Source: Ruminococcus sp. (GTDB lineage: Bacteria > Bacillota > Clostridia > Oscillospirales > Ruminococcaceae). Taken from it: DNA of 64,000 nt. The position numbers and the translations under genes were made by a program. Positions 13,724-36,207 of the stretch are shown piece by piece. Under the pieces are notes generated by a model. It was not told where the DNA came from. It saw nothing but the letters and a program-made list of their open reading frames with translations, and ran no database searches. The first letter of the stretch is position 1, and each line of letters starts with the position of its first letter. The stretch is taken from NCBI GenBank assembly GCA_017461395.1, contig JAFTYF010000025.1, forward strand, positions 13,713-77,712, written 5' to 3'.

Positions 13724-14083
13724 GTAGGGACGAACTTTGTTTTTAATTCGGAATGCGGAATTCGGAATTCGGAATTATGGTGTCAGCATTCGCCGACGTA
13801 TTAAAAATATTTCCGCCCATGATGTTTCATCGGAAATTATGCGGGACGTCGAGGACGCCGTCCCCTACAATCGGTCATTTAAGATTACCGTTGATATTAT
13901 GTAGGGGCGAACCCATGTGTTCGCCCTTTTCAACATCATACAGAAGCGTGTTGGGTGCAGCGTCACGCAATATAAAATCACCCGCCGCCGGAATTTTTGC
14001 CGCGAGCGAAAGCAGATTTTTTCCGCCGCAGAGAGTAGTGCGCAAAGCGCACGGGAACGTGGAACGGGGGCACCGCTGGTGCC
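13724..14083. repeat. Mosaic intergenic repeat (heptamer tract, GTAG REPs, palindromes)
   Basis: (aattcgg/aatgcgg)n, REPs at 13843-13868 and 13901-13926, gggtgcagcgtcacgc 13953-13968, ggcaccgctggtgcc 14069-14083; each module recurs elsewhere in the window. Confidence 0.8.
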
Positions 14084-14084
14084 T

Positions 14085-14304
14085 GTTGAAAGTTTTGAAA
14101 ACTGTGTTCAAATACATTATCAGAATTAACTTTCAACACATAATTTACTGTTTTAAACAGCCATAAAGTCAGTTTTTTAACCTTGCGGATGTTAATTCCA
14201 CAAAGTTTTCAACAATTTGTCAATTCAGGTGTGGAAACGAGCCTTTTTTTCTAAACCTTTGACATACAAAATTGCTTGCATTTTCAACAGTGATATGATA
14301 TAAT
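14085..14304 (+). promoter_or_regulatory. dnaA promoter with upstream degenerate DnaA-box cluster
   Basis: TTGCAT(14276)-17 bp-TATAAT(14299) with TG extension; TTTTCAACA at 14281 inside the spacer; more ..TCCACA/..TCAACA motifs upstream. Confidence 0.7.
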
Positions 14305-14382
14305 ATTAGTATATTAATATAGGAGAGTATCATCTTCTGAGGTTTAAAACATAAAATTTACATAAAATCACGGAGGTTCAAT

Positions 14383-15753
14383 ATGAATTCATTTGAGGAA
14401 GTTTTTGAAAATGTTAAAAAATACTGCCTTGAAAACCAGAAAATTCCGGAAATCGGCATCACAACATGGATAAATCCGCTGAAGCCCGAAAATTTCAACG
14501 GTACAGACGCCGTTTTCAGAATACAAACGCCCTTTCAGAAAAATATCATCATGACAAAATACGGCGATATCCTTAAAGAGGCATTCTACAACGTTCTTGG
14601 CTTCAATACAAACATAATCATCAACGTTGAATCCGAGGAACACGAAAAAGTAAAGGTTCCCACTGACGCTGAAATCGACCAGAAGCACGCTGAACTTGAA
14701 AAATCCTACAAATTTGCAAATTATGACTACACCTTTGATACATTTATCGAGGGCAGATCAAACGAATTTGCTCTTGCGTGCAGTAAGTCAGTTGCTAAAA
14801 ACTGCGGAGAAAAGGCAGTTCCGGACTATAACCCGCTTTTCATCTACGGTCCTTCCGGAATGGGTAAAACTCACCTTATCACCGCTATCGCAAACGAAGT
14901 CAGAAAAAATCATCCTACTTTCAATATAGTCTACGTTACAAGCGAAACCTTCGGCGGAGATCTTATCAATGCTATCAATCAGAGCACAATGTCTGATTTC
15001 CACGATAAGTACAGAAATGCCGATATACTGCTGATCGACGACGTTCAGTTCTTCGCTGAAAAGGAACGTATGCAGGAAGAATTCTTCCACACCTTCTACA
15101 AGCTTCATCAGGAGGGAAAGCAGATCGTTATCACATCCGATAAGCCTCCGAAGGAGCTCATCACTCTTGAAGAACGTCTCAGAACAAGATTCGAGGGCGG
15201 ACTTATCGCAGATATTTCGGCTCCGGACTATGAGACAAGACTTGCTATCATCAACAGAAAATCAGAACTTTTAGAGCTTAAAATGCCCGGTGAAGTCGCT
15301 GAATTCATGGCAAACCGCCTTAAATCCAACATCCGTCAGCTTGAAGGAGCTGTTGTTCGTCTTAAGGCACTCAATCATTTTGCCGGAAGCCCTATCACAA
15401 TTTCTATGGCTCAGAGCGTTATCCGTGATGTTCTTACCGATGAACAGCCGCTTCCGATCACCGTTGAGAAGATAATTTCTGAAGTTTCTACGGTTTACGG
15501 CGTTTCTCCTGAGGATATCCGCTCCAACAAGCGCTCCGCACAGATCTCGATTGCACGAAAAGTAGCTATTTATGTGGTCAGAGAGGTAACTCAGATGCCT
15601 CTTGCCTCAATCGGTACTGAATTCGGCGGCAGAGATCACTCAACTATCGTTTATTCCGTGACAAGCGTTACTGACGCTATGGCTAAGGATTCCACACTGC
15701 GTACACTCGTAGAGGATATCATCAAGAATATCAAGGACAGAAGCAAGATCTGA
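14383..15753 (+). CDS. dnaA: Chromosomal replication initiator DnaA
   Basis: YNPLFIYGPSGMGKTHL, LLIDDVQF, SNIRQLEGA, FGGRDHST. Confidence 0.98.
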   Translation: MNSFEEVFENVKKYCLENQKIPEIGITTWINPLKPENFNGTDAVFRIQTPFQKNIIMTKYGDILKEAFYNVLGFNTNIIINVESEEHEKVKVPTDAEIDQKHAELEKSYKFANYDYTFDTFIEGRSNEFALACSKSVAKNCGEKAVPDYNPLFIYGPSGMGKTHLITAIANEVRKNHPTFNIVYVTSETFGGDLINAINQSTMSDFHDKYRNADILLIDDVQFFAEKERMQEEFFHTFYKLHQEGKQIVITSDKPPKELITLEERLRTRFEGGLIADISAPDYETRLAIINRKSELLELKMPGEVAEFMANRLKSNIRQLEGAVVRLKALNHFAGSPITISMAQSVIRDVLTDEQPLPITVEKIISEVSTVYGVSPEDIRSNKRSAQISIARKVAIYVVREVTQMPLASIGTEFGGRDHSTIVYSVTSVTDAMAKDSTLRTLVEDIIKNIKDRSKI

Positions 15754-15759
15754 TGATTT

Positions 15760-16260
15760 TTCCTGCGTGGAAAATGTTGGAACTGTTAGGTTTAAAAGTG
15801 GAAAAGTATAGTTATTCAACCGTGTTTTCAACACTATGTTAAAAACTCAGTGGAATACTTTCCAGATAAACTTTCATGTATATATCGCTGAAAGCTCCGG
15901 ACAAGTCCTGATGAAAAAATACATTATTCAACAGTTTCAGATTTTCAACAATCCACAGACTTTTGAAAGTTGAAAGTGAAAAAATAACGATTCCACAGAT
16001 TTGTCAACAATTCATCAACTTCAACTCCACAAGATTCAACTTATTCAACACAAAAAAACGGAATCAAAAAAGCTTCCACATTTATCCCAAATTTTACAAC
16101 ATCCGTTTGTGGAGGGATTTATGGCTTAACACAGAGGAAAACTGCTTATCCAAACTTTTCCACAGCCCCAACAACAACAACAAATATATTATTCTTATCT
16201 TATCTTATTTTTTATTTTCTTATTTCTTAATCTTAGCTTGACTTATCTTAAATAATACAG
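15760..16260. other. oriC (DnaA-box array, trio-like repeats, AT-rich DUE)
   Basis: dnaA-dnaN gap with more than 10 box-like 9-mers; TTATCCAAA-C-TTTTCCACA-GCCC-(CAA)5 at 16146-16183; AT-rich 16184-16260; gene strand bias flips here. Confidence 0.85.
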
Positions 16261-16336
16261 ACAGGATAAAATCAGGCTTCTGATGTCCGTCGTTCACGGA
16301 CACATCCTGACATATTATATATACCGGAGGTTTCAA

Positions 16337-17440
16337 ATGAAATTTACCTGCAATAAATCAGAACTGAGCGAGGCTATCGGTAACGTTTCCAGAGCTGTTT
16401 CTCAGAAATCAACTATTCCCGCTCTCGAAGGAATAAAAGTTAGAATTGAATCCGGAAAGGTTATTCTTACCGCATATAATCTTGAAATGGGTATTCGTAC
16501 CTTTATCAGCGCTCAGACAGAGGGCGAGGGAGATTTTGTTGTCGGAACAAGACTTTTCAGCGAATTTACAAGACGTATGTCCGGCGATGTTATCAGCTTC
16601 GATATCGACGAGAACCTCATTATCAATATCTCCTGCGGTTCGACAGAATGTAGTATTTCGGCTATGTCTGCCGATGATTTCCCTGAGCTTCCCGTTGTTG
16701 ATTCAAACAGAAGCTTCTCTATAAAGCAGACTGTACTGCGCTCCATGATAAATCAGACCAGCTATGCAACCTCCACAAACGAGAGCAAGCCCGTTATGAC
16801 AGGCGAGCTTTTCGATATCGAGGACGGAAATTTCAACATGGTCGCAATTGACGGCTTCCGTCTTGCTATCCGCTGTGAAAAAGCAGGCTGCTCTGATAAG
16901 TATAATTTCGTTGTTCCGAAAAAGGCGCTCACTGAAGTTTCTACTCTTATAAAGGATGACAGCGAAAATGACTGCGTTATCTGCATCAATGACCGCCATA
17001 TCATCTTTCAAATTGACAACGTTATCGTAATTTCACGTCTGCTTGAGGGAGCTTTCCATAATTACAAGCTGAGTATCCCCACAGGCTATAAGACAGAAGT
17101 TATTATCAGCAAGAGAGAATTTTCCACCTGTCTTGAAAGATGCTCGCTTCTCCTTGACGAAAAGAACAAGTCCCCTATCCGCTGCGAGGTAGGAAACGGC
17201 ACTGTCAGAATCAGCTGCCGTACAGGCATCGGAAAGATAAACGACTCTATTCCGGCTGATATTTCCGGGGAAACAGTGACAATCGGCTTCAATAACAAGC
17301 TTATCCTTGAGGCTCTCAGAGCAGCAGAGGGCGATAAGCTGAGAATACGCTTCAACGGCGCTATGAAGGTTATCGAAATTCTTCCCTTTGACGGCGAAAG
17401 CTATATCTACCTTGTAATGCCTATTCAGCTCAAAAACTGA
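16337..17440 (+). CDS. dnaN: DNA polymerase III beta sliding clamp
   Basis: MKFTCNK start with GGAGG SD, AIDGFRLA, SRLLEGAF, LVMPIQLK. Confidence 0.96.
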   Translation: MKFTCNKSELSEAIGNVSRAVSQKSTIPALEGIKVRIESGKVILTAYNLEMGIRTFISAQTEGEGDFVVGTRLFSEFTRRMSGDVISFDIDENLIINISCGSTECSISAMSADDFPELPVVDSNRSFSIKQTVLRSMINQTSYATSTNESKPVMTGELFDIEDGNFNMVAIDGFRLAIRCEKAGCSDKYNFVVPKKALTEVSTLIKDDSENDCVICINDRHIIFQIDNVIVISRLLEGAFHNYKLSIPTGYKTEVIISKREFSTCLERCSLLLDEKNKSPIRCEVGNGTVRISCRTGIGKINDSIPADISGETVTIGFNNKLILEALRAAEGDKLRIRFNGAMKVIEILPFDGESYIYLVMPIQLKN

Positions 17441-19340: not shown

Positions 19341-21266
<1,926 letters not shown>

Positions 21267-26516: not shown

Positions 26517-27473
26517 ATGAGAGAAGCTAAGCTTGCAGCTAGTGTCTTCGGCGTAATCACTGCTTGTTTAATAGGCGGCGGGGCTGTTGCTTATAATGCA
26601 GCACCTCAGGTAAGTACAAGAGATAATTTTGAAATTGTAGAACCCGCTTACAACGACGTGACACTCACTGCTGAAACTTCCGATGAGTACAAAACCGCAA
26701 TAACAAAGCCAGCAAAGGAGAAAAAAGCAACAAAAAATTCGGTGTCTGAATCAAATAAAAGCGCAAACACCGTAAATCTTTCCTATATTGTATCTTCAAC
26801 GGATAATACGACAGTTGCTTCAACAGTTGTTTCAACATTCCAGTCTGTAACAGAGACAATTACAAAGGAATCAACAACTAATACAGCAACACAGTCGCCT
26901 TCCACAACAGTGGAAAATACTACAAAAACTGAGGTTCAGACAACATATACAACAGCTGAACCTACAACAGAAGCCGCAACACAGGCTCCTGTTACTACCG
27001 AAGCAACGTCTATTGAGGAAGTAACGGTTACAGTTACAGTTCCTGCAACAGATGCTCCGACAGAAGCACCTACAGAACCGGACACAGAGCCGGCAACAGA
27101 AGATGTTTTTGTTGAAGTTCCTGATACAGGCATCTCAGGACTCCCGATTTCGGAAAGTGATTTCATCCTCCTCTGCAACGTAGTTGCTCACGAGGCAGGA
27201 TCTTACTGGATAGGCCCTTACGAAAAGGCTTATGTGGCAGAGGTTGTTATGAACAGAGTTAACAGTCCCCTCTACCCCAACACAATCTACGGCGTACTTA
27301 CACAGCCGTATCAGTTCTCAGGAAGCGGCGCATATGTCAACCTCGGAACTTACTCAGGCTACGTTACAGAAGCCGTTAAAGAAGCAGTTATGCTTTACTT
27401 CACCGAGCCGGATTCCTTTACTCAGGGATACCTCAGCTTCTACGGTGACGGTTACAGAAACTACTTCCGTTAA
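26517..27473 (+). CDS. Secreted/anchored cell-wall hydrolase (SleB/CwlJ-like Hydrolase_2 domain) with Thr-rich stalk
   Basis: N-terminal hydrophobic segment, long T/S/E/P linker, VAHEA..VAEVVMNRVNSPLYPNTIYGVLTQPYQFS. Confidence 0.82.
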   Translation: MREAKLAASVFGVITACLIGGGAVAYNAAPQVSTRDNFEIVEPAYNDVTLTAETSDEYKTAITKPAKEKKATKNSVSESNKSANTVNLSYIVSSTDNTTVASTVVSTFQSVTETITKESTTNTATQSPSTTVENTTKTEVQTTYTTAEPTTEAATQAPVTTEATSIEEVTVTVTVPATDAPTEAPTEPDTEPATEDVFVEVPDTGISGLPISESDFILLCNVVAHEAGSYWIGPYEKAYVAEVVMNRVNSPLYPNTIYGVLTQPYQFSGSGAYVNLGTYSGYVTEAVKEAVMLYFTEPDSFTQGYLSFYGDGYRNYFR

Positions 27474-31797: not shown

Positions 31798-31976
31798 ATC
31801 ATATTTACTAAAATAACGGTGTTATGCTGATATAATATTTAATAATAGAAATTATGATTTTTTGCTTGCATTTTTTTTCATTATGTGTTATTATATAGAG
31901 TAAGAAGTTGCGCCATGATGAATAAATGGCAAATTTAATAACGTACATCTTACAGTGTACGGGTTGGGAGATCAAT

Positions 31977-34900
31977 ATGCCAAAAAGACAGGATATTAAC
32001 AAAATTATGATCATCGGTTCTGGCCCTATCATTATCGGTCAGGCGTGCGAATTTGACTATTCCGGTACACAGGCTTGTAAGGCTCTGCGCAAACTGGGAT
32101 ATGAGATCGTTCTCGTAAACTCAAATCCTGCTACGATCATGACAGATCCGGATGTTGCCGATATCACTTACATCGAACCTCTTAACCTTGCAAGACTTAC
32201 GCAGATCATCGAAAAAGAGCGCCCTGATGCACTCCTTCCGAATCTTGGCGGTCAGTCCGGACTTAACCTCTGCTCCGAACTCGACAAGGCTGGCGTTCTT
32301 GAAAAATACAACGTTCAGGTAATCGGCGTTAAGGTTGACGCTATCGAGCGCGGTGAGGACCGTATCGAGTTCAAAAAGGCTATGGATGAGATTAATATCG
32401 GTATGCCTCGTTCTGAGGTTGCCTATACAGTTGACGAGGCTGTAAAGATCGCTGAACAGCTTAAATATCCAGTTGTTCTTCGTCCTGCATATACAATGGG
32501 CGGTACAGGCGGCGGAATGGTATACAATGTGGACGAGCTTAAGGTTGTCTGCGAAAGAGGTCTCCAGGCGTCACTCGTAAATCAGGTTCTCGTTGAAGAA
32601 TGTATCTTCGGCTGGGAAGAACTTGAGCTTGAAGTCGTAAGAGACGCTGACAACAACAAGATCACTGTTTGCTTTATCGAAAACATCGACCCTGTCGGAA
32701 TCCATACAGGCGATTCCTTCTGCTCTGCACCTATGCTGACAATTCCTGAGGATGTTCAGAAGGAACTTCAGGAAATGTCTTACAAAATTATTGAATCTAT
32801 CAACGTTATCGGCGGATGTAACTGCCAGTTCGCCCGTGATCCCGAAACAGGACGTATCGTTGTTATCGAGATCAACCCCAGAACCTCACGTTCTTCCGCA
32901 CTTGCTTCAAAAGCAACAGGCTTCCCGATCGCTTTCGTATCAGCAATGCTCGCCTGCGGACTTACACTTAAGGATATTCCCTGCGGCAAATATGGTACTC
33001 TCGACAAATATTATCCCGACGGCGACTATGTTGTAATCAAGTTCGCTCGCTGGGCATTTGAGAAATTCAAGGGCTCTGAGGATAAGCTCGGAACTCAGAT
33101 GAGAGCTGTCGGCGAAGTAATGAGCATCGGAAAGACATATAAGGAAGCTTTCCAGAAGGCTATAAGAAGCCTTGAAATCGGCAGATATGGTCTTGGCTCT
33201 GCAAACGGCTATGACAAGCTGACTAAGGATGAGCTTATTGATAAGCTCCGCTTCCCGTCAAGCAACAGACAGTTTATTATATATGAGGCTCTCAGAAAGG
33301 GCGCTTCAATTGAGGAAATCCACGAGCTTACAAAGATAAAGAACTGGTTCCTTGAACAGATGAAGGAGCTTGTTGATGAGGAAGAAAGCCTTATCGCAAT
33401 GAAGGGCTCTGTTCCCGGCAAGGATGTTCTTAAGCAGGCTAAGCTTGACGGCTTCTCAGACCGCTACCTCAGCGAACTTCTCGAAGTTACTGAGGAGGAA
33501 ATCAGAAATGCCCGCATCGGCTTCGGCATCAAGGAAGCTTGGGAGGGCGTTCATGTAAGCGGTACTGAAAACGCTGCATATTACTATTCAACATATCATC
33601 TCGATGAGGACAAGAGCCCTGTAAATACAGAAAAGCCGAAGATCATGATTCTCGGCGGCGGTCCTAACAGAATCGGTCAGGGTATCGAATTTGACTACTG
33701 CTGCGTTCATGCGGCTCTCGCTCTTAAGGAGCTCGGCTTTGAGTCAATTATCGTAAACTGCAACCCTGAGACAGTTTCTACAGACTACGATACATCCGAT
33801 AAGCTCTATTTTGAGCCTCTTACACTGGAGGATGTTCTCAGTATCCACGAAAAGGAAAAGCCCGTCGGTGTTATCGCTCAGTTCGGCGGACAGACTCCCC
33901 TTAACCTCGCAAACGACCTTAAAAAATATGGCGTAAATATCCTCGGAACAACTCCGGAAACTATCGACCTCGCTGAGGACAGAGATAATTTCCGTGAAAT
34001 GATGGATAAGCTTGAAATTCCTATGCCTGAGTCAGGTATGGCTGTAAACGTTGACGAGGCACTTGAAATCGCAAACAGAATCGGTTATCCCGTAATGGTT
34101 CGTCCTTCCTACGTTCTCGGCGGCAGAGGAATGGAAATCGTTCACGATGACGAAATGATGAGAGTTTATATGGGCGCTGCTGTTGGTGTAACTCCCGACA
34201 GACCTATCCTCATCGACCGCTTCCTCAATCACGCTACTGAGTGCGAGGCAGACGCAATTTCTGACGGAACAAACTGCTTTGTTCCCGCTGTTATGGAACA
34301 TATCGAGCTTGCCGGCGTTCACTCAGGCGACTCCGCTTGTATCCTTCCTTCAATGAACCTTTCTGACGAACAGGTTGCGAAGATTAAGGAATATACAAGA
34401 AAAATTGCTGTTGAAATGAATGTATGCGGCCTTATGAATATGCAGTACGCTATCGAGGGCGACAAGGTTTATGTTCTCGAAGCAAATCCCCGTGCATCAA
34501 GAACCGTGCCGCTCGTATCAAAGGTATGCAGCATCAACATGGTAAAGATCGCAACAGAGATCATTACATCAAGCCTTACAGGAAAGCCCTCACCCGTGCC
34601 GGAGCTTCGTGACAAGACGATCACTCACTACGGCGTCAAGGAGGCTGTATTCCCGTTCAATATGTTCCCAGAGGTTGACCCTGTTCTCGGACCTGAAATG
34701 CGTTCTACAGGTGAGGTTCTTGGAATTGCTCCTACATTCGGAGAGGCATATTATAAGGCTCAGGAAGCTACTCAGCAGACAGTTCTTCCCGAGGAGGGCA
34801 CAGTTCTTCTGAGTATCTGCGACAGAGACAAGCCCGAGCTTCTTGATATTGCAAACGCATTCAACGACCTTGGCTTCAGAATCATTGCTACACACAAGTG

Positions 34901-35201
34901 CTATAAGCTTCTTGTTGAGGCTGGAATTCCCTGTGAGAGAATCTTCAAGATCTACGAGGGACGTCCGAACATTGCTGATGAGATTGCAAACGGCGAAATA
35001 CAGCTGATTATCAATACACCTGCCGGAAAGTCAAGTGCACATGATGACAGCTATATCAGAAAGTCTGCTATCAAGCACAGAGTAACATATATCACCACAA
35101 TGGCTGCTGCAAAGGCAAGCGCTGAGGGAATCAAGGCTATGAAGGAGAACAAACACTTCGGTGTTAAGTCGCTTCAGGCACACCACGCTGACATAAAATA
35201 A
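31977..35201 (+). CDS. carB: Carbamoyl-phosphate synthase large subunit
   Basis: MPKRQDINKIMIIGSGP start, two ATP-grasp halves, MGS-like C-terminal domain. Confidence 0.96.
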   Translation: MPKRQDINKIMIIGSGPIIIGQACEFDYSGTQACKALRKLGYEIVLVNSNPATIMTDPDVADITYIEPLNLARLTQIIEKERPDALLPNLGGQSGLNLCSELDKAGVLEKYNVQVIGVKVDAIERGEDRIEFKKAMDEINIGMPRSEVAYTVDEAVKIAEQLKYPVVLRPAYTMGGTGGGMVYNVDELKVVCERGLQASLVNQVLVEECIFGWEELELEVVRDADNNKITVCFIENIDPVGIHTGDSFCSAPMLTIPEDVQKELQEMSYKIIESINVIGGCNCQFARDPETGRIVVIEINPRTSRSSALASKATGFPIAFVSAMLACGLTLKDIPCGKYGTLDKYYPDGDYVVIKFARWAFEKFKGSEDKLGTQMRAVGEVMSIGKTYKEAFQKAIRSLEIGRYGLGSANGYDKLTKDELIDKLRFPSSNRQFIIYEALRKGASIEEIHELTKIKNWFLEQMKELVDEEESLIAMKGSVPGKDVLKQAKLDGFSDRYLSELLEVTEEEIRNARIGFGIKEAWEGVHVSGTENAAYYYSTYHLDEDKSPVNTEKPKIMILGGGPNRIGQGIEFDYCCVHAALALKELGFESIIVNCNPETVSTDYDTSDKLYFEPLTLEDVLSIHEKEKPVGVIAQFGGQTPLNLANDLKKYGVNILGTTPETIDLAEDRDNFREMMDKLEIPMPESGMAVNVDEALEIANRIGYPVMVRPSYVLGGRGMEIVHDDEMMRVYMGAAVGVTPDRPILIDRFLNHATECEADAISDGTNCFVPAVMEHIELAGVHSGDSACILPSMNLSDEQVAKIKEYTRKIAVEMNVCGLMNMQYAIEGDKVYVLEANPRASRTVPLVSKVCSINMVKIATEIITSSLTGKPSPVPELRDKTITHYGVKEAVFPFNMFPEVDPVLGPEMRSTGEVLGIAPTFGEAYYKAQEATQQTVLPEEGTVLLSICDRDKPELLDIANAFNDLGFRIIATHKCYKLLVEAGIPCERIFKIYEGRPNIADEIANGEIQLIINTPAGKSSAHDDSYIRKSAIKHRVTYITTMAAAKASAEGIKAMKENKHFGVKSLQAHHADIK

Positions 35202-35351
35202 GGCACCAGCGGTGCCCCCGTTCCACGTTCCCGTGCGCTTGGCGCACTACTCTCTGCGGCGGAAATAATATGCTTTCGCTCGTGGAAAGAATTCCATTAT
35301 ATTGCGTGACGATGCACGAAATAGTAAGGGCGCACCTATGTGTGCGCCCCT
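35202..35351. repeat. Inverted copy of the 13955-14083 element plus a REP
   Basis: 35202-35285 matches the reverse complement of about 14000-14083 with 4 mismatches; gtaagggcgcacctatgtgtgcgccc at 35324. Confidence 0.85.
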
Positions 35352-35439
35352 TGTTTTGCGATAATTTTTCACAGTGAATACAGTGGCGATCCTTGCGGTC
35401 GCTATTTATTTTTTTGCAATTTGTCTTATCGGAAAGCCG

Positions 35440-35785
35440 AAGTTTTCAACGTTTCTTCTTTGAGATGTTGAAAATCCAGGTGCAGGAAATAACCTGTCAA
35501 ATTGCCGTTTTTTTGCATAAATTACAGGATAATTTATATTAACACAGAAAGATTTTTTAACCAATAAATTACAGCAATATAATCCTAAATCTTGTCCACA
35601 GGATGTGAAGAAACTTTCAACAGTGTGTTGAAACGAATGTGGATCAGCGTTGAGTGCTGTTGATAACTCTGTGGAAAGTGTTGAATTGCACGTTAAATCC
35701 AAGTTTTTCCATACTGGAAAAGTTGAAAACTATGTGGATAAACGGGGGAAATGTGTAAACAATAAAAATATGTTGTGGAAAACCG
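35440..35785. promoter_or_regulatory. Remote DnaA-box cluster
   Basis: TGTGGATAA 35733, TGTGGAAAA 35774, TTGTCCACA 35592, TGTGGATCA 35638, TGTTGATAA 35658, TGTGGAAAG 35670, plus several TTTCAACA-type boxes. Confidence 0.7.
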
Positions 35786-35819
35786 ATCCGCAATAAATTC
35801 AAACAGAGGATATGATTGT

Positions 35820-36173
35820 ATGAAAAAGCTTTTAGCAATATGTTCCGTATTTCTGTCGATTTGTGCAACTTTTACAGGCTGCGGATCGCAGGATAATTCC
35901 GATAGTTCCGACCGTGATGATTCCGCAATTGTAGGCGACGGAGACTATATGGACAGAGACGAAGATCCGACAGCAGAGCGTATCGACGACGAGATCGACG
36001 ATGTAAAGGATGCCGGCGACGACATTATCGAAGGCGCAACGAATGCCATTGACGATATAATCGGTGGTGACGACGACGAAAGCCGTGACAGAGACGACCG
36101 TGACGATGATATTGACCGTGATGATCGTGAAAGACATTCCGAGGCTGACAGAGAGAGAACGACCGACAGATAA
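35820..36173 (+). CDS. Small Asp/Arg-rich lipoprotein
   Basis: Signal peptide with lipobox FTG-C, disordered D/R-rich body, GAGG SD. Confidence 0.7.
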   Translation: MKKLLAICSVFLSICATFTGCGSQDNSDSSDRDDSAIVGDGDYMDRDEDPTAERIDDEIDDVKDAGDDIIEGATNAIDDIIGGDDDESRDRDDRDDDIDRDDRERHSEADRERTTDR

Positions 36174-36175
36174 AC

Positions 36176-36207
36176 AAAAAACCGCAGCTTTTATTGCTGC
36201 GGTTTTT
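36176..36207. terminator. Bidirectional terminator
   Basis: aaaaaccgcagc-ttttatt-gctgcggttttt between convergent genes. Confidence 0.85.

What the first reader, a model, noticed from the sequence alone, without database searches (positions are those of the whole stretch)
35440..35785. Second dense DnaA-box cluster about 19 kb from oriC
About 350 bp of non-coding DNA holds at least 10 box-like 9-mers. These include the only perfect TGTGGATAA I noticed in the window (35733), TGTGGAAAA (35774), TTGTCCACA (35592), TGTGGATCA (35638), TGTTGATAA (35658), TGTGGAAAG (35670) and an inverted pair CTTTCAACA/TGTTGAAAC (35614/35626). No trio/DUE module follows. It resembles B. subtilis DnaA-box clusters or E. 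coli datA/DARS, i.e. a titration or nucleotide-exchange locus for initiation control. It could also put the downstream lipoprotein gene under DnaA control.
Basis: partly seen in the sequence, partly recalled or inferred. Interest (0 to 1): 0.65.

Follow-up and report, generated by a model that had tools for sequence, protein, structure and literature searches.

The report
Conserved DnaA-box cluster near oriC
A 220-bp array of about ten binding sites for the replication initiator DnaA sits in front of a tiny lipoprotein gene 19 kb from the origin of a Ruminococcus chromosome and is kept across the genus; it is a new example of the accessory DnaA-box clusters known from Bacillus subtilis, not a new kind of element.

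Summary
Window 35592-35782 carries 10 DnaA boxes, against 0.6 expected in dinucleotide shuffles. It is the densest cluster in the 2.08-Mb assembly.

A box model (TGTKGAAAA) learned only from the matching clusters of ten other species was scanned over this genome. It picks out four places: this cluster, the dnaA-dnaN spacer, the dnaA upstream region, and one further cluster on another contig. So the motif is the organism's own oriC box.

The array is conserved at 70-86% DNA identity in 23 of 24 species of the genus. All 42 public Ruminococcus loci have 4-10 boxes at fixed distances from the start codon of a small acidic lipoprotein gene. The other neighbour varies and the cassette flips orientation, yet it stays 17-45 kb from dnaA on the dnaN side.

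There is no DnaA-trio or unwinding module, no GC-skew switch, no Rfam family and no conserved RNA fold.

Best reading: a B. subtilis-type origin-proximal DnaA-box cluster. It most likely serves as the operator of the lipoprotein gene and, by mass action, as a DnaA sink. DnaA binding and both effects are untested. It is a new member of a known kind, of moderate interest.

The parts
35328..35406 (+). Two terminator-like hairpins after carB (35328-35349 and 35382-35406, the second followed by a T run). They mark the upstream boundary, so the cluster is not read through from carB.
   Evidence: carB identified by Pfam
35443..35474 (.). Two outlying boxes, TTTTCAACG (35443, + orientation) and TGTTGAAAA (35466, - orientation). 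They are shared only with the closest relative.
35573..35588 (+). Conserved element AGCAATATAATCCTAA with a -10-like TATAAT (35578-35583). It lies at a fixed 242-244 nt from the ATG in 31 of 43 loci. No conserved -35 was found. It is a candidate promoter of the lipoprotein gene, which would place all boxes in the 5' leader.
35592..35600 (+). Box a, TTGTCCACA, moderately conserved.
35614..35622 (+). Box b, CTTTCAACA. It is the left half of a convergent pair with a 3-bp gap.
35626..35634 (-). Box c, TGTTGAAAC (reads GTTTCAACA on the - strand). It is the right half of the convergent pair.
35638..35646 (-). Box d, TGTGGATCA. TGTGGA is conserved and the last three bases vary.
35658..35687 (-). Boxes e, f and g: TGTTGATAA (35658), TGTGGAAAG (35670) and TGTTGAATT (35679). 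They form a tandem trio with starts 12 and 9 bp apart. G and T interchange at box position 4 between species.
35721..35741 (-). Boxes h and i: AGTTGAAAA (35721) and the perfect TGTGGATAA (35733). TGTGGATAA is present in 39 of 42 loci.
35744..35769 (+). Conserved GGGG(G) followed by GTAAACAATAAAAAT. Its function is unassigned. It is not on the side of a box where a trio module would lie.
   Evidence: sequence reading
35774..35793 (-). Box j, TGTGGAAAA (35774-35782), the best-scoring box. With it lies an inverted half box, TCCGCAA (35787-35793). Together they give the only conserved hairpin found by RNAalifold.
35807..36173 (+). RBS AGAGGA (35807-35812) and the lipoprotein gene (ATG at 35820, stop at 36171-36173, 117 aa). 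The protein has a signal peptide, a lipobox FTGC, an acidic disordered region (pI about 4) and DAGxDIIxGAx 11-residue repeats. It matches no Pfam or NCBIfam family.
36177..36207 (.). Bidirectional terminator hairpin that closes the one-gene cassette.

Best explanation
Window 35573-35795 is an accessory DnaA-box cluster outside the origin, of the kind described in Bacillus subtilis.

About ten 9-mers of this organism's own DnaA-box type lie between a -10-like element and the ribosome-binding site of a one-gene lipoprotein cassette. The box type is TTTTC[A/C]ACA, with a few classic TTATCCACA. Two boxes point right and eight point left. The two groups meet at a convergent pair with a 3-bp gap. 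Several longer start-to-start distances are near multiples of 10.5 bp (21, 42, 63 bp).

Inferred mechanism:
- DnaA, probably the ATP form acting cooperatively, coats this array.
- If the promoter is the conserved -10 at 35578, the bound array is a roadblock or occluder. It would repress the lipoprotein gene when free DnaA is high.
- The array also holds roughly as many DnaA molecules as the dnaA-dnaN spacer and lies 19 kb from oriC. It is therefore duplicated soon after initiation and lowers the DnaA available to oriC.

What is shown:
- motif identity with oriC
- statistical excess
- genus-wide conservation of box positions
- linkage to the lipoprotein gene
- origin-proximal position

What is inferred:
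- DnaA binding
- the direction of regulation
- any effect on initiation
For: 1. A position weight matrix built only from the orthologous clusters of 10 other species was scanned over this genome. It ranks this cluster (10 boxes), the dnaA-dnaN spacer (10), dnaA upstream (6) and C43:17890-17990 (6) on top. Everything else has 4 or fewer.
2. The same pattern appears on a 397-kb contig of a relative: cluster 8, dnaA-dnaN 8, dnaA upstream 5, the rest 3 or fewer.
3. oriC boxes and cluster boxes share the same variants, with A or C at position 6 and T at position 3.
4. Dinucleotide shuffles give a mean of 0.61 and a maximum of 4, against 10 observed.
5. The non-coding DNA is 70-86% identical in 23 of 24 species of the genus.
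6. All 42 public Ruminococcus loci have 4-10 boxes (median 8) upstream of the lipoprotein gene. Positions relative to the ATG are fixed.
7. Conservation peaks on the boxes and drops in the spacers. TGTTGA and TGTGGA interchange at the same site.
8. The cassette keeps the lipoprotein gene while the upstream neighbour changes.
9. In 9 of 9 genomes with both on one contig, the cluster lies 17-45 kb from dnaA on the dnaN side.
10. carB is terminated before the cluster.
11. The literature reports that B. subtilis DBCs bind DnaA, regulate neighbouring genes and restrain initiation. It also expects them to be common near oriC in Firmicutes (PMC3245932, PMC2533591).
Against: - There is no direct evidence of DnaA binding.
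- The -10-like element has no conserved -35. The promoter could lie elsewhere, and DnaA could then activate the gene, as at sda.
- The literal B. subtilis density criterion (A > 0.3) is not met. The value here is 0.18. No region of this genome meets it, oriC included, because the box consensus differs.
- The orientation of the cassette relative to oriC flips between species, and the distance varies from 17 to 45 kb.
- The second cluster (C43) is not origin-proximal in relative G018. Proximity is therefore not a rule for all such clusters.
Confidence: 0.68

Rival explanations
1. It is purely a transcriptional operator. DnaA binds and controls the lipoprotein gene, but the array has no measurable effect on replication initiation.
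For: The array travels with the lipoprotein gene in every species, at fixed distances from its ATG, while other neighbours change and the orientation to oriC flips. In B. subtilis, single DBCs contribute unequally to initiation control.
Against: Ten boxes are far more than a simple operator would need. The box count equals that of the dnaA-dnaN spacer. Its position within 17-45 kb of dnaA is kept in 9 of 9 genomes despite local rearrangement.
Confidence: 0.2
2. It is a DARS-like nucleotide-exchange site. The convergent pair plus a third tandem box (35614, 35626, 35638) would form a head-to-head DnaA complex that releases ADP and regenerates ATP-DnaA.
For: The DARS core is three boxes with I and II opposed and III in tandem. 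The same pattern lies at 35614-35646 and recurs in the dnaA-dnaN spacer at 15825-15857. The opposed pair also recurs in the C43 cluster.
Against: The gap here is 3 bp, not 5 bp. The triple is embedded in a long co-oriented array that is typical of stable binding sites. The same triple occurs inside oriC itself, so it looks like a general assembly module. No DARS has been described in Firmicutes. From my own knowledge, not tested here, B. subtilis DnaA exchanges nucleotide quickly on its own.
Confidence: 0.05
3. The boxes are sites for another DNA-binding protein, for example Spo0A (0A box TGTCGAA) or an unknown regulator, rather than DnaA.
For: TGTTGAA is one base from the 0A box. spo0A lies in the same window according to an earlier scan note.
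Against: Position 4 is G (51%) or T (48%) and C only 1% over 90 aligned sites, whereas the 0A box requires C. The same motif class fills both flanks of dnaA and ends in the box-GC-trio unwinding module at 16146-16260. One of the best-conserved sites is the textbook TGTGGATAA.
Confidence: 0.04
4. It is a structured 5' leader RNA (a riboswitch or attenuator) of the lipoprotein mRNA, and the 9-mers are RNA motifs.
For: A leader of about 230 nt would be long for such a small gene. One conserved 7-bp hairpin lies at 35773-35793.
Against: There is no Rfam match. RNAalifold on 43 sequences finds only that one hairpin on the + strand, and it is also explained as a box plus an inverted half box. Conservation is confined to 9-mers with free spacers and shows no paired covariation.
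Confidence: 0.02
5. It is a second or displaced replication origin, or a third part of oriC.
For: The box density equals that of oriC.
Against: The GC-skew minimum is at 17-18 kb next to dnaA/dnaN, not at 35 kb. The same is true of relative G018. No GC cluster, trio run or AT-rich unwinding element lies on the ACA side of any box, unlike 16156-16260. The distance and orientation to dnaA vary between species.
Confidence: 0.01

Closest known systems
Bacillus subtilis DnaA-box clusters outside oriC (six DBCs, e.g. yydA-yycS, ywlC-ywlB, yqeG-sda; Ishikawa 2007 PMC2533591; Okumura 2012 PMC3245932)
   Same: - An intergenic array of many DnaA boxes at oriC-like density.
- Close to oriC.
- Sits in the control region of a neighbouring gene.
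- Found in a Firmicute that, like Bacillus, has box clusters on both sides of dnaA.
   Different: - The boxes are mostly TTTTC[A/C]ACA, so the Bacillus A-value rule does not transfer.
- The partner gene is a tiny acidic lipoprotein with no Bacillus counterpart.
- The array and gene form a rigid cassette kept across the whole genus, whereas Bacillus species-specific DBCs sit before different genes.
- Binding and function are untested.
Escherichia coli datA
   Same: A cluster of DnaA boxes away from oriC that could lower the initiation potential after it is duplicated.
   Different: datA acts through IHF-dependent hydrolysis of DnaA-bound ATP. No IHF site was sought or seen here, and from my own knowledge Firmicutes generally lack IHF. 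datA has five boxes over about 1 kb and is not the operator of a gene.
Escherichia coli DARS1/DARS2
   Same: An opposed pair of boxes followed by a third in tandem (35614, 35626, 35638).
   Different: The gap is 3 bp, not 5 bp. The triple is embedded in a ten-box array and also occurs inside oriC. No IHF or Fis region is present. The activity has not been tested.
Streptomyces coelicolor origin-proximal DnaA-box cluster (cited in PMC3245932)
   Same: An origin-proximal cluster in a Gram-positive bacterium, reported to regulate initiation.
   Different: It belongs to a different phylum and uses a different box consensus. No linked lipoprotein gene is known.

Membership tests
B. subtilis-type DnaA-box cluster (DBC) outside oriC | Intergenic cluster of multiple DnaA boxes at a density comparable to oriC and far above the genome background | tested here: met
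   There are 10 boxes per 350 bp against a genome mean of 0.25. This ties with the dnaA-dnaN spacer, and the next non-cluster window has 4. Shuffles give a maximum of 4.
B. subtilis-type DnaA-box cluster (DBC) outside oriC | The boxes are the same motif as those used at the organism's own oriC | tested here: met
   A matrix trained only on other species' clusters recovers both dnaA flanks in this genome and in relative G018. The box variants match.
B. subtilis-type DnaA-box cluster (DBC) outside oriC | Ishikawa 2007 criterion: A value > 0.3 for four successive TTATNCACA boxes at <=1 mismatch | tested here: not met
   The best A here is 0.18, second highest in the genome. No region of the genome, oriC included, exceeds 0.3. 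The rule is calibrated on Bacillus boxes and does not transfer.
B. subtilis-type DnaA-box cluster (DBC) outside oriC | Location close to oriC | tested here: met
   It lies 19.4 kb from the dnaA-dnaN spacer here. In 8 relatives with both on one contig it lies 17-45 kb away, always on the dnaN side.
B. subtilis-type DnaA-box cluster (DBC) outside oriC | Stable DnaA occupancy in vivo or in vitro | not testable with these tools
   This needs ChIP-seq, a DNA pull-down or footprinting.
B. subtilis-type DnaA-box cluster (DBC) outside oriC | Deletion causes early or over-initiation, and/or the neighbouring gene responds to the DnaA level | not testable with these tools
   Only the physical linkage to the lipoprotein gene is shown.
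E. coli datA | An essential IHF-binding site among the boxes that promotes hydrolysis of DnaA-bound ATP | not tested
   No IHF consensus scan was run.
E. coli DARS | Core of three boxes, with I and II opposed and separated by 5 bp, and III in tandem with II | tested here: inconclusive
   The orientation pattern is present at 35614, 35626 and 35638, but the gaps are 3 bp. The same triple lies inside oriC at 15825-15857.
Chromosome origin / basal unwinding system | Box pair, then GC cluster, DnaA-trios and an AT-rich unwinding element on the ACA side of the box, coinciding with a GC-skew switch | tested here: not met
   That layout is present at 16146-16260 and absent at 35573-35795. The conserved GGGG lies on the TAA side of box i. 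The skew minimum is at 17-18 kb.
Spo0A 0A-box array | TGTCGAA core with C at position 4 | tested here: not met
   C is 1% at that position over 90 aligned sites. G is 51% and T is 48%.
Cis-regulatory leader RNA | A conserved secondary structure with covariation, or a match to an Rfam family | tested here: not met
   There is no Rfam match at E <= 1 other than chance-level hits. RNAalifold gives only one 7-bp hairpin on the + strand.

The most novel reading that the evidence does not exclude
The array-plus-lipoprotein cassette could be a dedicated replication-to-envelope signalling unit of Ruminococcus. The amount of free DnaA would set the level of a secreted, acidic, disordered lipoprotein. 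The convergent 3-bp-gap box triple is shared with oriC, and its opposed pair recurs in the second cluster. It could act as a head-to-head DnaA assembly core with DARS-like nucleotide-exchange activity, which would be the first in a Firmicute. The three substitutions in the DnaA DNA-binding domain (P to A, T to S, H to Y relative to B. subtilis) would underlie a shifted box specificity, TTTTC[A/C]ACA.
Probability: 0.1. Interest if true: 0.65.

Novelty: new member of a known kind. Interest (0 to 1): 0.36.

Why it matters
Accessory DnaA-box clusters have been studied experimentally in only a few model bacteria. This one is a clean, genus-wide conserved example in rumen and gut Ruminococcus, a group with no replication-control data.

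It shows three things:
- The genus uses a shifted DnaA-box consensus, so classic TTATCCACA scans barely see its oriC.
- The genome has a very small set of strong DnaA sites: two at oriC and two elsewhere.
- One of these sites is welded to a single lipoprotein gene. That gene is therefore a concrete candidate for a DnaA-regulated target and for a DnaA sink.

The finding is useful for origin annotation and for interpreting replication-rate estimates from metagenomes. It does not change the current picture of initiation control.

Tried and rejected
- **Classic-consensus scan.** It works for this cluster but nearly misses oriC, which has only two boxes at <=1 mismatch. I replaced it with an organism-specific core and then with a matrix trained on other species, to avoid circularity.
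- **C58:80388 hit in the core scan.** It is a Thr-rich coding tandem repeat in a dockerin-type protein, not a DnaA site.
- **Window 26761-27110.** Its 5 core hits inside a SleB-like gene fall to 3 or fewer with the matrix.
- **C54:68692.** It has the top Bacillus-style A value but is only a few scattered weak boxes at a gene end.
- **Duplication of the dnaA upstream region.** The sequence shared between 35203-35330 and 13960-14085 is a dispersed hairpin repeat with many copies in the genome. It lies on the opposite side relative to the boxes. Rejected.
- **Rfam and RNAalifold.** No family and no fold beyond one hairpin.
- **Sigma-70 promoter scan.** Its hits are at chance level, and the one + strand hit near the cluster (35512-35540) lies in non-conserved DNA.
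- **-35 search.** Nothing conserved was found upstream of the conserved -10-like element.
- **Pfam, NCBIfam and AlphaFold2 on the lipoprotein.** No family match. The model has low confidence (pLDDT 52.7), with a signal-peptide helix and one further helix, and is otherwise unstructured.

Full report
**Setting**

The window is contig C9:13713-77712 of a 2.08-Mb, 80-contig assembly. Public relatives carry Ruminococcus names, many of them R. flavefaciens.
- dnaA is at 14383-15753 and dnaN at 16283-17440 (Pfam).
- Cumulative GC skew is lowest at 17-18 kb, so oriC lies at the dnaA flanks.
- The finding lies between carB (31926-35201) and a 117-aa ORF (35820-36173).
- Two terminator-like hairpins (35328-35349, 35382-35406) follow carB. 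A bidirectional terminator (36177-36207) follows the small ORF.

- With the classic TTATCCACA at <=1 mismatch, the region has 5 hits in 190 bp. No other 350-bp window of the genome has more than 3. The genome mean is 0.36 per kb.
- One claim is wrong. Perfect boxes also occur at 20399, 54678 and 59342, inside genes.

**The organism's own box**

Both flanks of dnaA are full of TTTTCAACA, TATTCAACA and xxTTCCACA, and almost lack classic boxes. The dnaA-dnaN spacer ends in TTATCCAAA-c-TTTTCCACA-GCCCC-(AAC)4-AT-rich, the box/GC/trio/unwinding layout.

To test motif identity without circularity, I built a 12-column matrix from 90 aligned sites in the orthologous clusters of ten other species. This genome and its 86%-identical twin were left out. 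The consensus is TGT[G/T]GAAAA.
- Scanned over this genome at 9 bits or more (0.72 sites per kb), the top windows are the finding (10 sites), the dnaA-dnaN spacer (10), dnaA upstream (6) and C43:17890-17990 (6). All others have 4 or fewer.
- On the 397-kb contig of relative G018, the ranking is cluster 8, dnaA-dnaN 8 and dnaA upstream 5, with the rest at 3 or fewer. The skew minimum is at dnaA.
- 2000 dinucleotide shuffles of 35440-35800 give a mean of 0.61 and a maximum of 4.

So the motif is the one that marks oriC. The excess is not due to AT-richness, and similar density is not common elsewhere.

**Anatomy**

- A conserved element AGCAATATAATCCTAA (35573-35588) holds a -10-like TATAAT.
- Two right-pointing boxes follow: 35592 TTGTCCACA and 35614 CTTTCAACA.
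- Eight left-pointing boxes follow: 35626, 35638, 35658, 35670, 35679, 35721, 35733 (perfect TGTGGATAA) and 35774 (TGTGGAAAA).
- The two groups meet at a convergent pair with a 3-bp gap (35614/35626).
- Adjacent tandem boxes start 9-12 bp apart. Several longer start-to-start distances are 21, 42 and 63 bp, close to multiples of 10.5 bp, and these are the same in every species.
- A conserved GGGG-N-GTAAACAATAAAAAT (35744-35769) has no assigned role.
- Box j pairs with an inverted half box, TCCGCAA (35787-35793).
- The RBS and ATG follow.
- The same convergent-pair-plus-third-box triple occurs in the dnaA-dnaN spacer at 15825-15857. The pair also occurs in the C43 cluster.

**Conservation**

- The non-coding stretch matches at 70-86% DNA identity in 23 of 24 other species of the genus.
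- In a 12-species and a 43-sequence alignment, information content peaks on the boxes and falls in the spacers. TGTTGA and TGTGGA replace each other at the same site. This is the behaviour expected of equivalent protein-binding sites.
- All 42 public Ruminococcus loci found through the lipoprotein have 4-10 boxes (median 8) in the 350 bp upstream. TGTGGATAA is present in 39 of them.
- The array always adjoins the lipoprotein gene. The gene on the other side is carB, a gene for an unidentified protein beginning MFNGFS, an ABC ATPase gene or others.
- In all 9 genomes where dnaA and the array share a contig (this one included), the array lies 17-45 kb from dnaA on the dnaN side. The cassette faces either way.

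**The linked gene**

The protein is 80-150 aa. It has a signal peptide and lipobox (T-G/A/S-C-G), an acidic low-complexity stretch (pI about 4), and a variable number (about one to five) of copies of an 11-residue DAGxDIIxGAx repeat. There is no Pfam or NCBIfam match. AlphaFold2 on 41 sequences gives pLDDT 52.7, with a signal-peptide helix and one further helix at 63-81. Its function is unknown.

**Alternatives tested**

- RNA element: no Rfam family. Only one 7-bp hairpin is found on the + strand across 43 sequences.
- Spo0A boxes: C at position 4 is 1%.
- Origin: there is no skew switch, and no trio or unwinding module on the ACA side of any box.
- Duplication of the dnaA upstream region: the shared 120 bp is a dispersed hairpin repeat with many copies in the genome.
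- Promoter: the -10-like hexamer sits 242-244 nt from the ATG in 31 of 43 loci, but no conserved -35 is present. The consensus scan is at chance level.

**Comparison with known systems**

B. subtilis has six DBCs outside oriC.
- They bind DnaA stably.
- Most lie near oriC.
- They regulate neighbours (sda up; ywlC and yydA down) and jointly restrain initiation.
- The authors expect such clusters to be common near oriC in Firmicutes.

The present array fits that description on every sequence-level feature except the literal A-value rule. That rule fails for this genome's oriC too.

datA and DARS membership is not supported. The DARS core has a 5-bp gap between opposed boxes, and here the gap is 3 bp.

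A side observation concerns the six base-contacting DnaA residues listed for E. coli and B. subtilis. This DnaA keeps R, D and H but has A for P, S for T and Y for H. This may relate to the shifted box.

**Verdict**

The array is real, highly non-random and conserved. It is best read as an origin-proximal DnaA-box cluster that doubles as the control region of a lipoprotein gene. It is a new member of a known kind. DnaA binding, the sign of regulation and any effect on initiation are inferred, not shown.

Noticed in passing
G000 contig C43:17890-17990 (locus L075:1579-1665), outside the window: This is a second non-origin DnaA-box cluster, with 6 boxes in 90 bp. It has the same architecture: a convergent pair with a 3-bp gap, then tandem boxes. 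It matches at E<=0.001 in 24 of 40 species of the genus (about 21 with matches longer than 40 bp). In relative G018 it is not on the 397-kb dnaA contig, so it is not origin-proximal there.
   Followed up: partly
window 35203-35330 and 13960-14085 (inverted); many other copies, e.g. C11:6431, C24:12355, C36:1457: A dispersed family of hairpin-rich intergenic repeats (REP-like, about 90-130 bp, 84-91% identical between copies) flanks both the dnaA upstream region and carB. It is unrelated to the boxes.
   Followed up: partly
window 15580-15680 (DnaA residues about 400-432): The DnaA DNA-binding domain differs from B. subtilis and E. coli at three of the six base-contacting positions: LASIG instead of LPxIG, and DHSTIVYS instead of DHTTVIHA. 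This fits a shifted box consensus, TTTTC[A/C]ACA.
   Followed up: partly
window 15825-15857: The dnaA-dnaN spacer contains the same box triple (TTTTCAACA cta TGTTAAAAA ctc AGTGGAATA) as the cluster at 35614-35646. This suggests a recurrent DnaA assembly module.
   Followed up: partly
window 15753-16283 and 13900-14383: oriC of this genome is nearly invisible to a classic TTATCCACA scan at <=1 mismatch, which finds 2 hits. It has 17 boxes of the local type. Origin finders tuned to the classic box could misplace oriC on the accessory cluster.
   Followed up: yes
G000 contig C58:80200-80740: A Thr/Pro-rich coding tandem repeat in a 910-aa secreted dockerin-type protein produces eight ATCCACA/TTCCACA matches. 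It is a false positive in simple box-density scans.
   Followed up: yes
G000 contig C10:39993: An isolated convergent box pair, TTCAACA-gta-TGTTGAA, lies outside any cluster.
   Followed up: no
window 35820-36173 and loci L033-L074: The lipoprotein's 11-residue repeat (DAGxDIIxGAx) varies in number, from about one to five, between species. The acidic linker is hypervariable, whereas the signal peptide is conserved even at the DNA level.
   Followed up: partly
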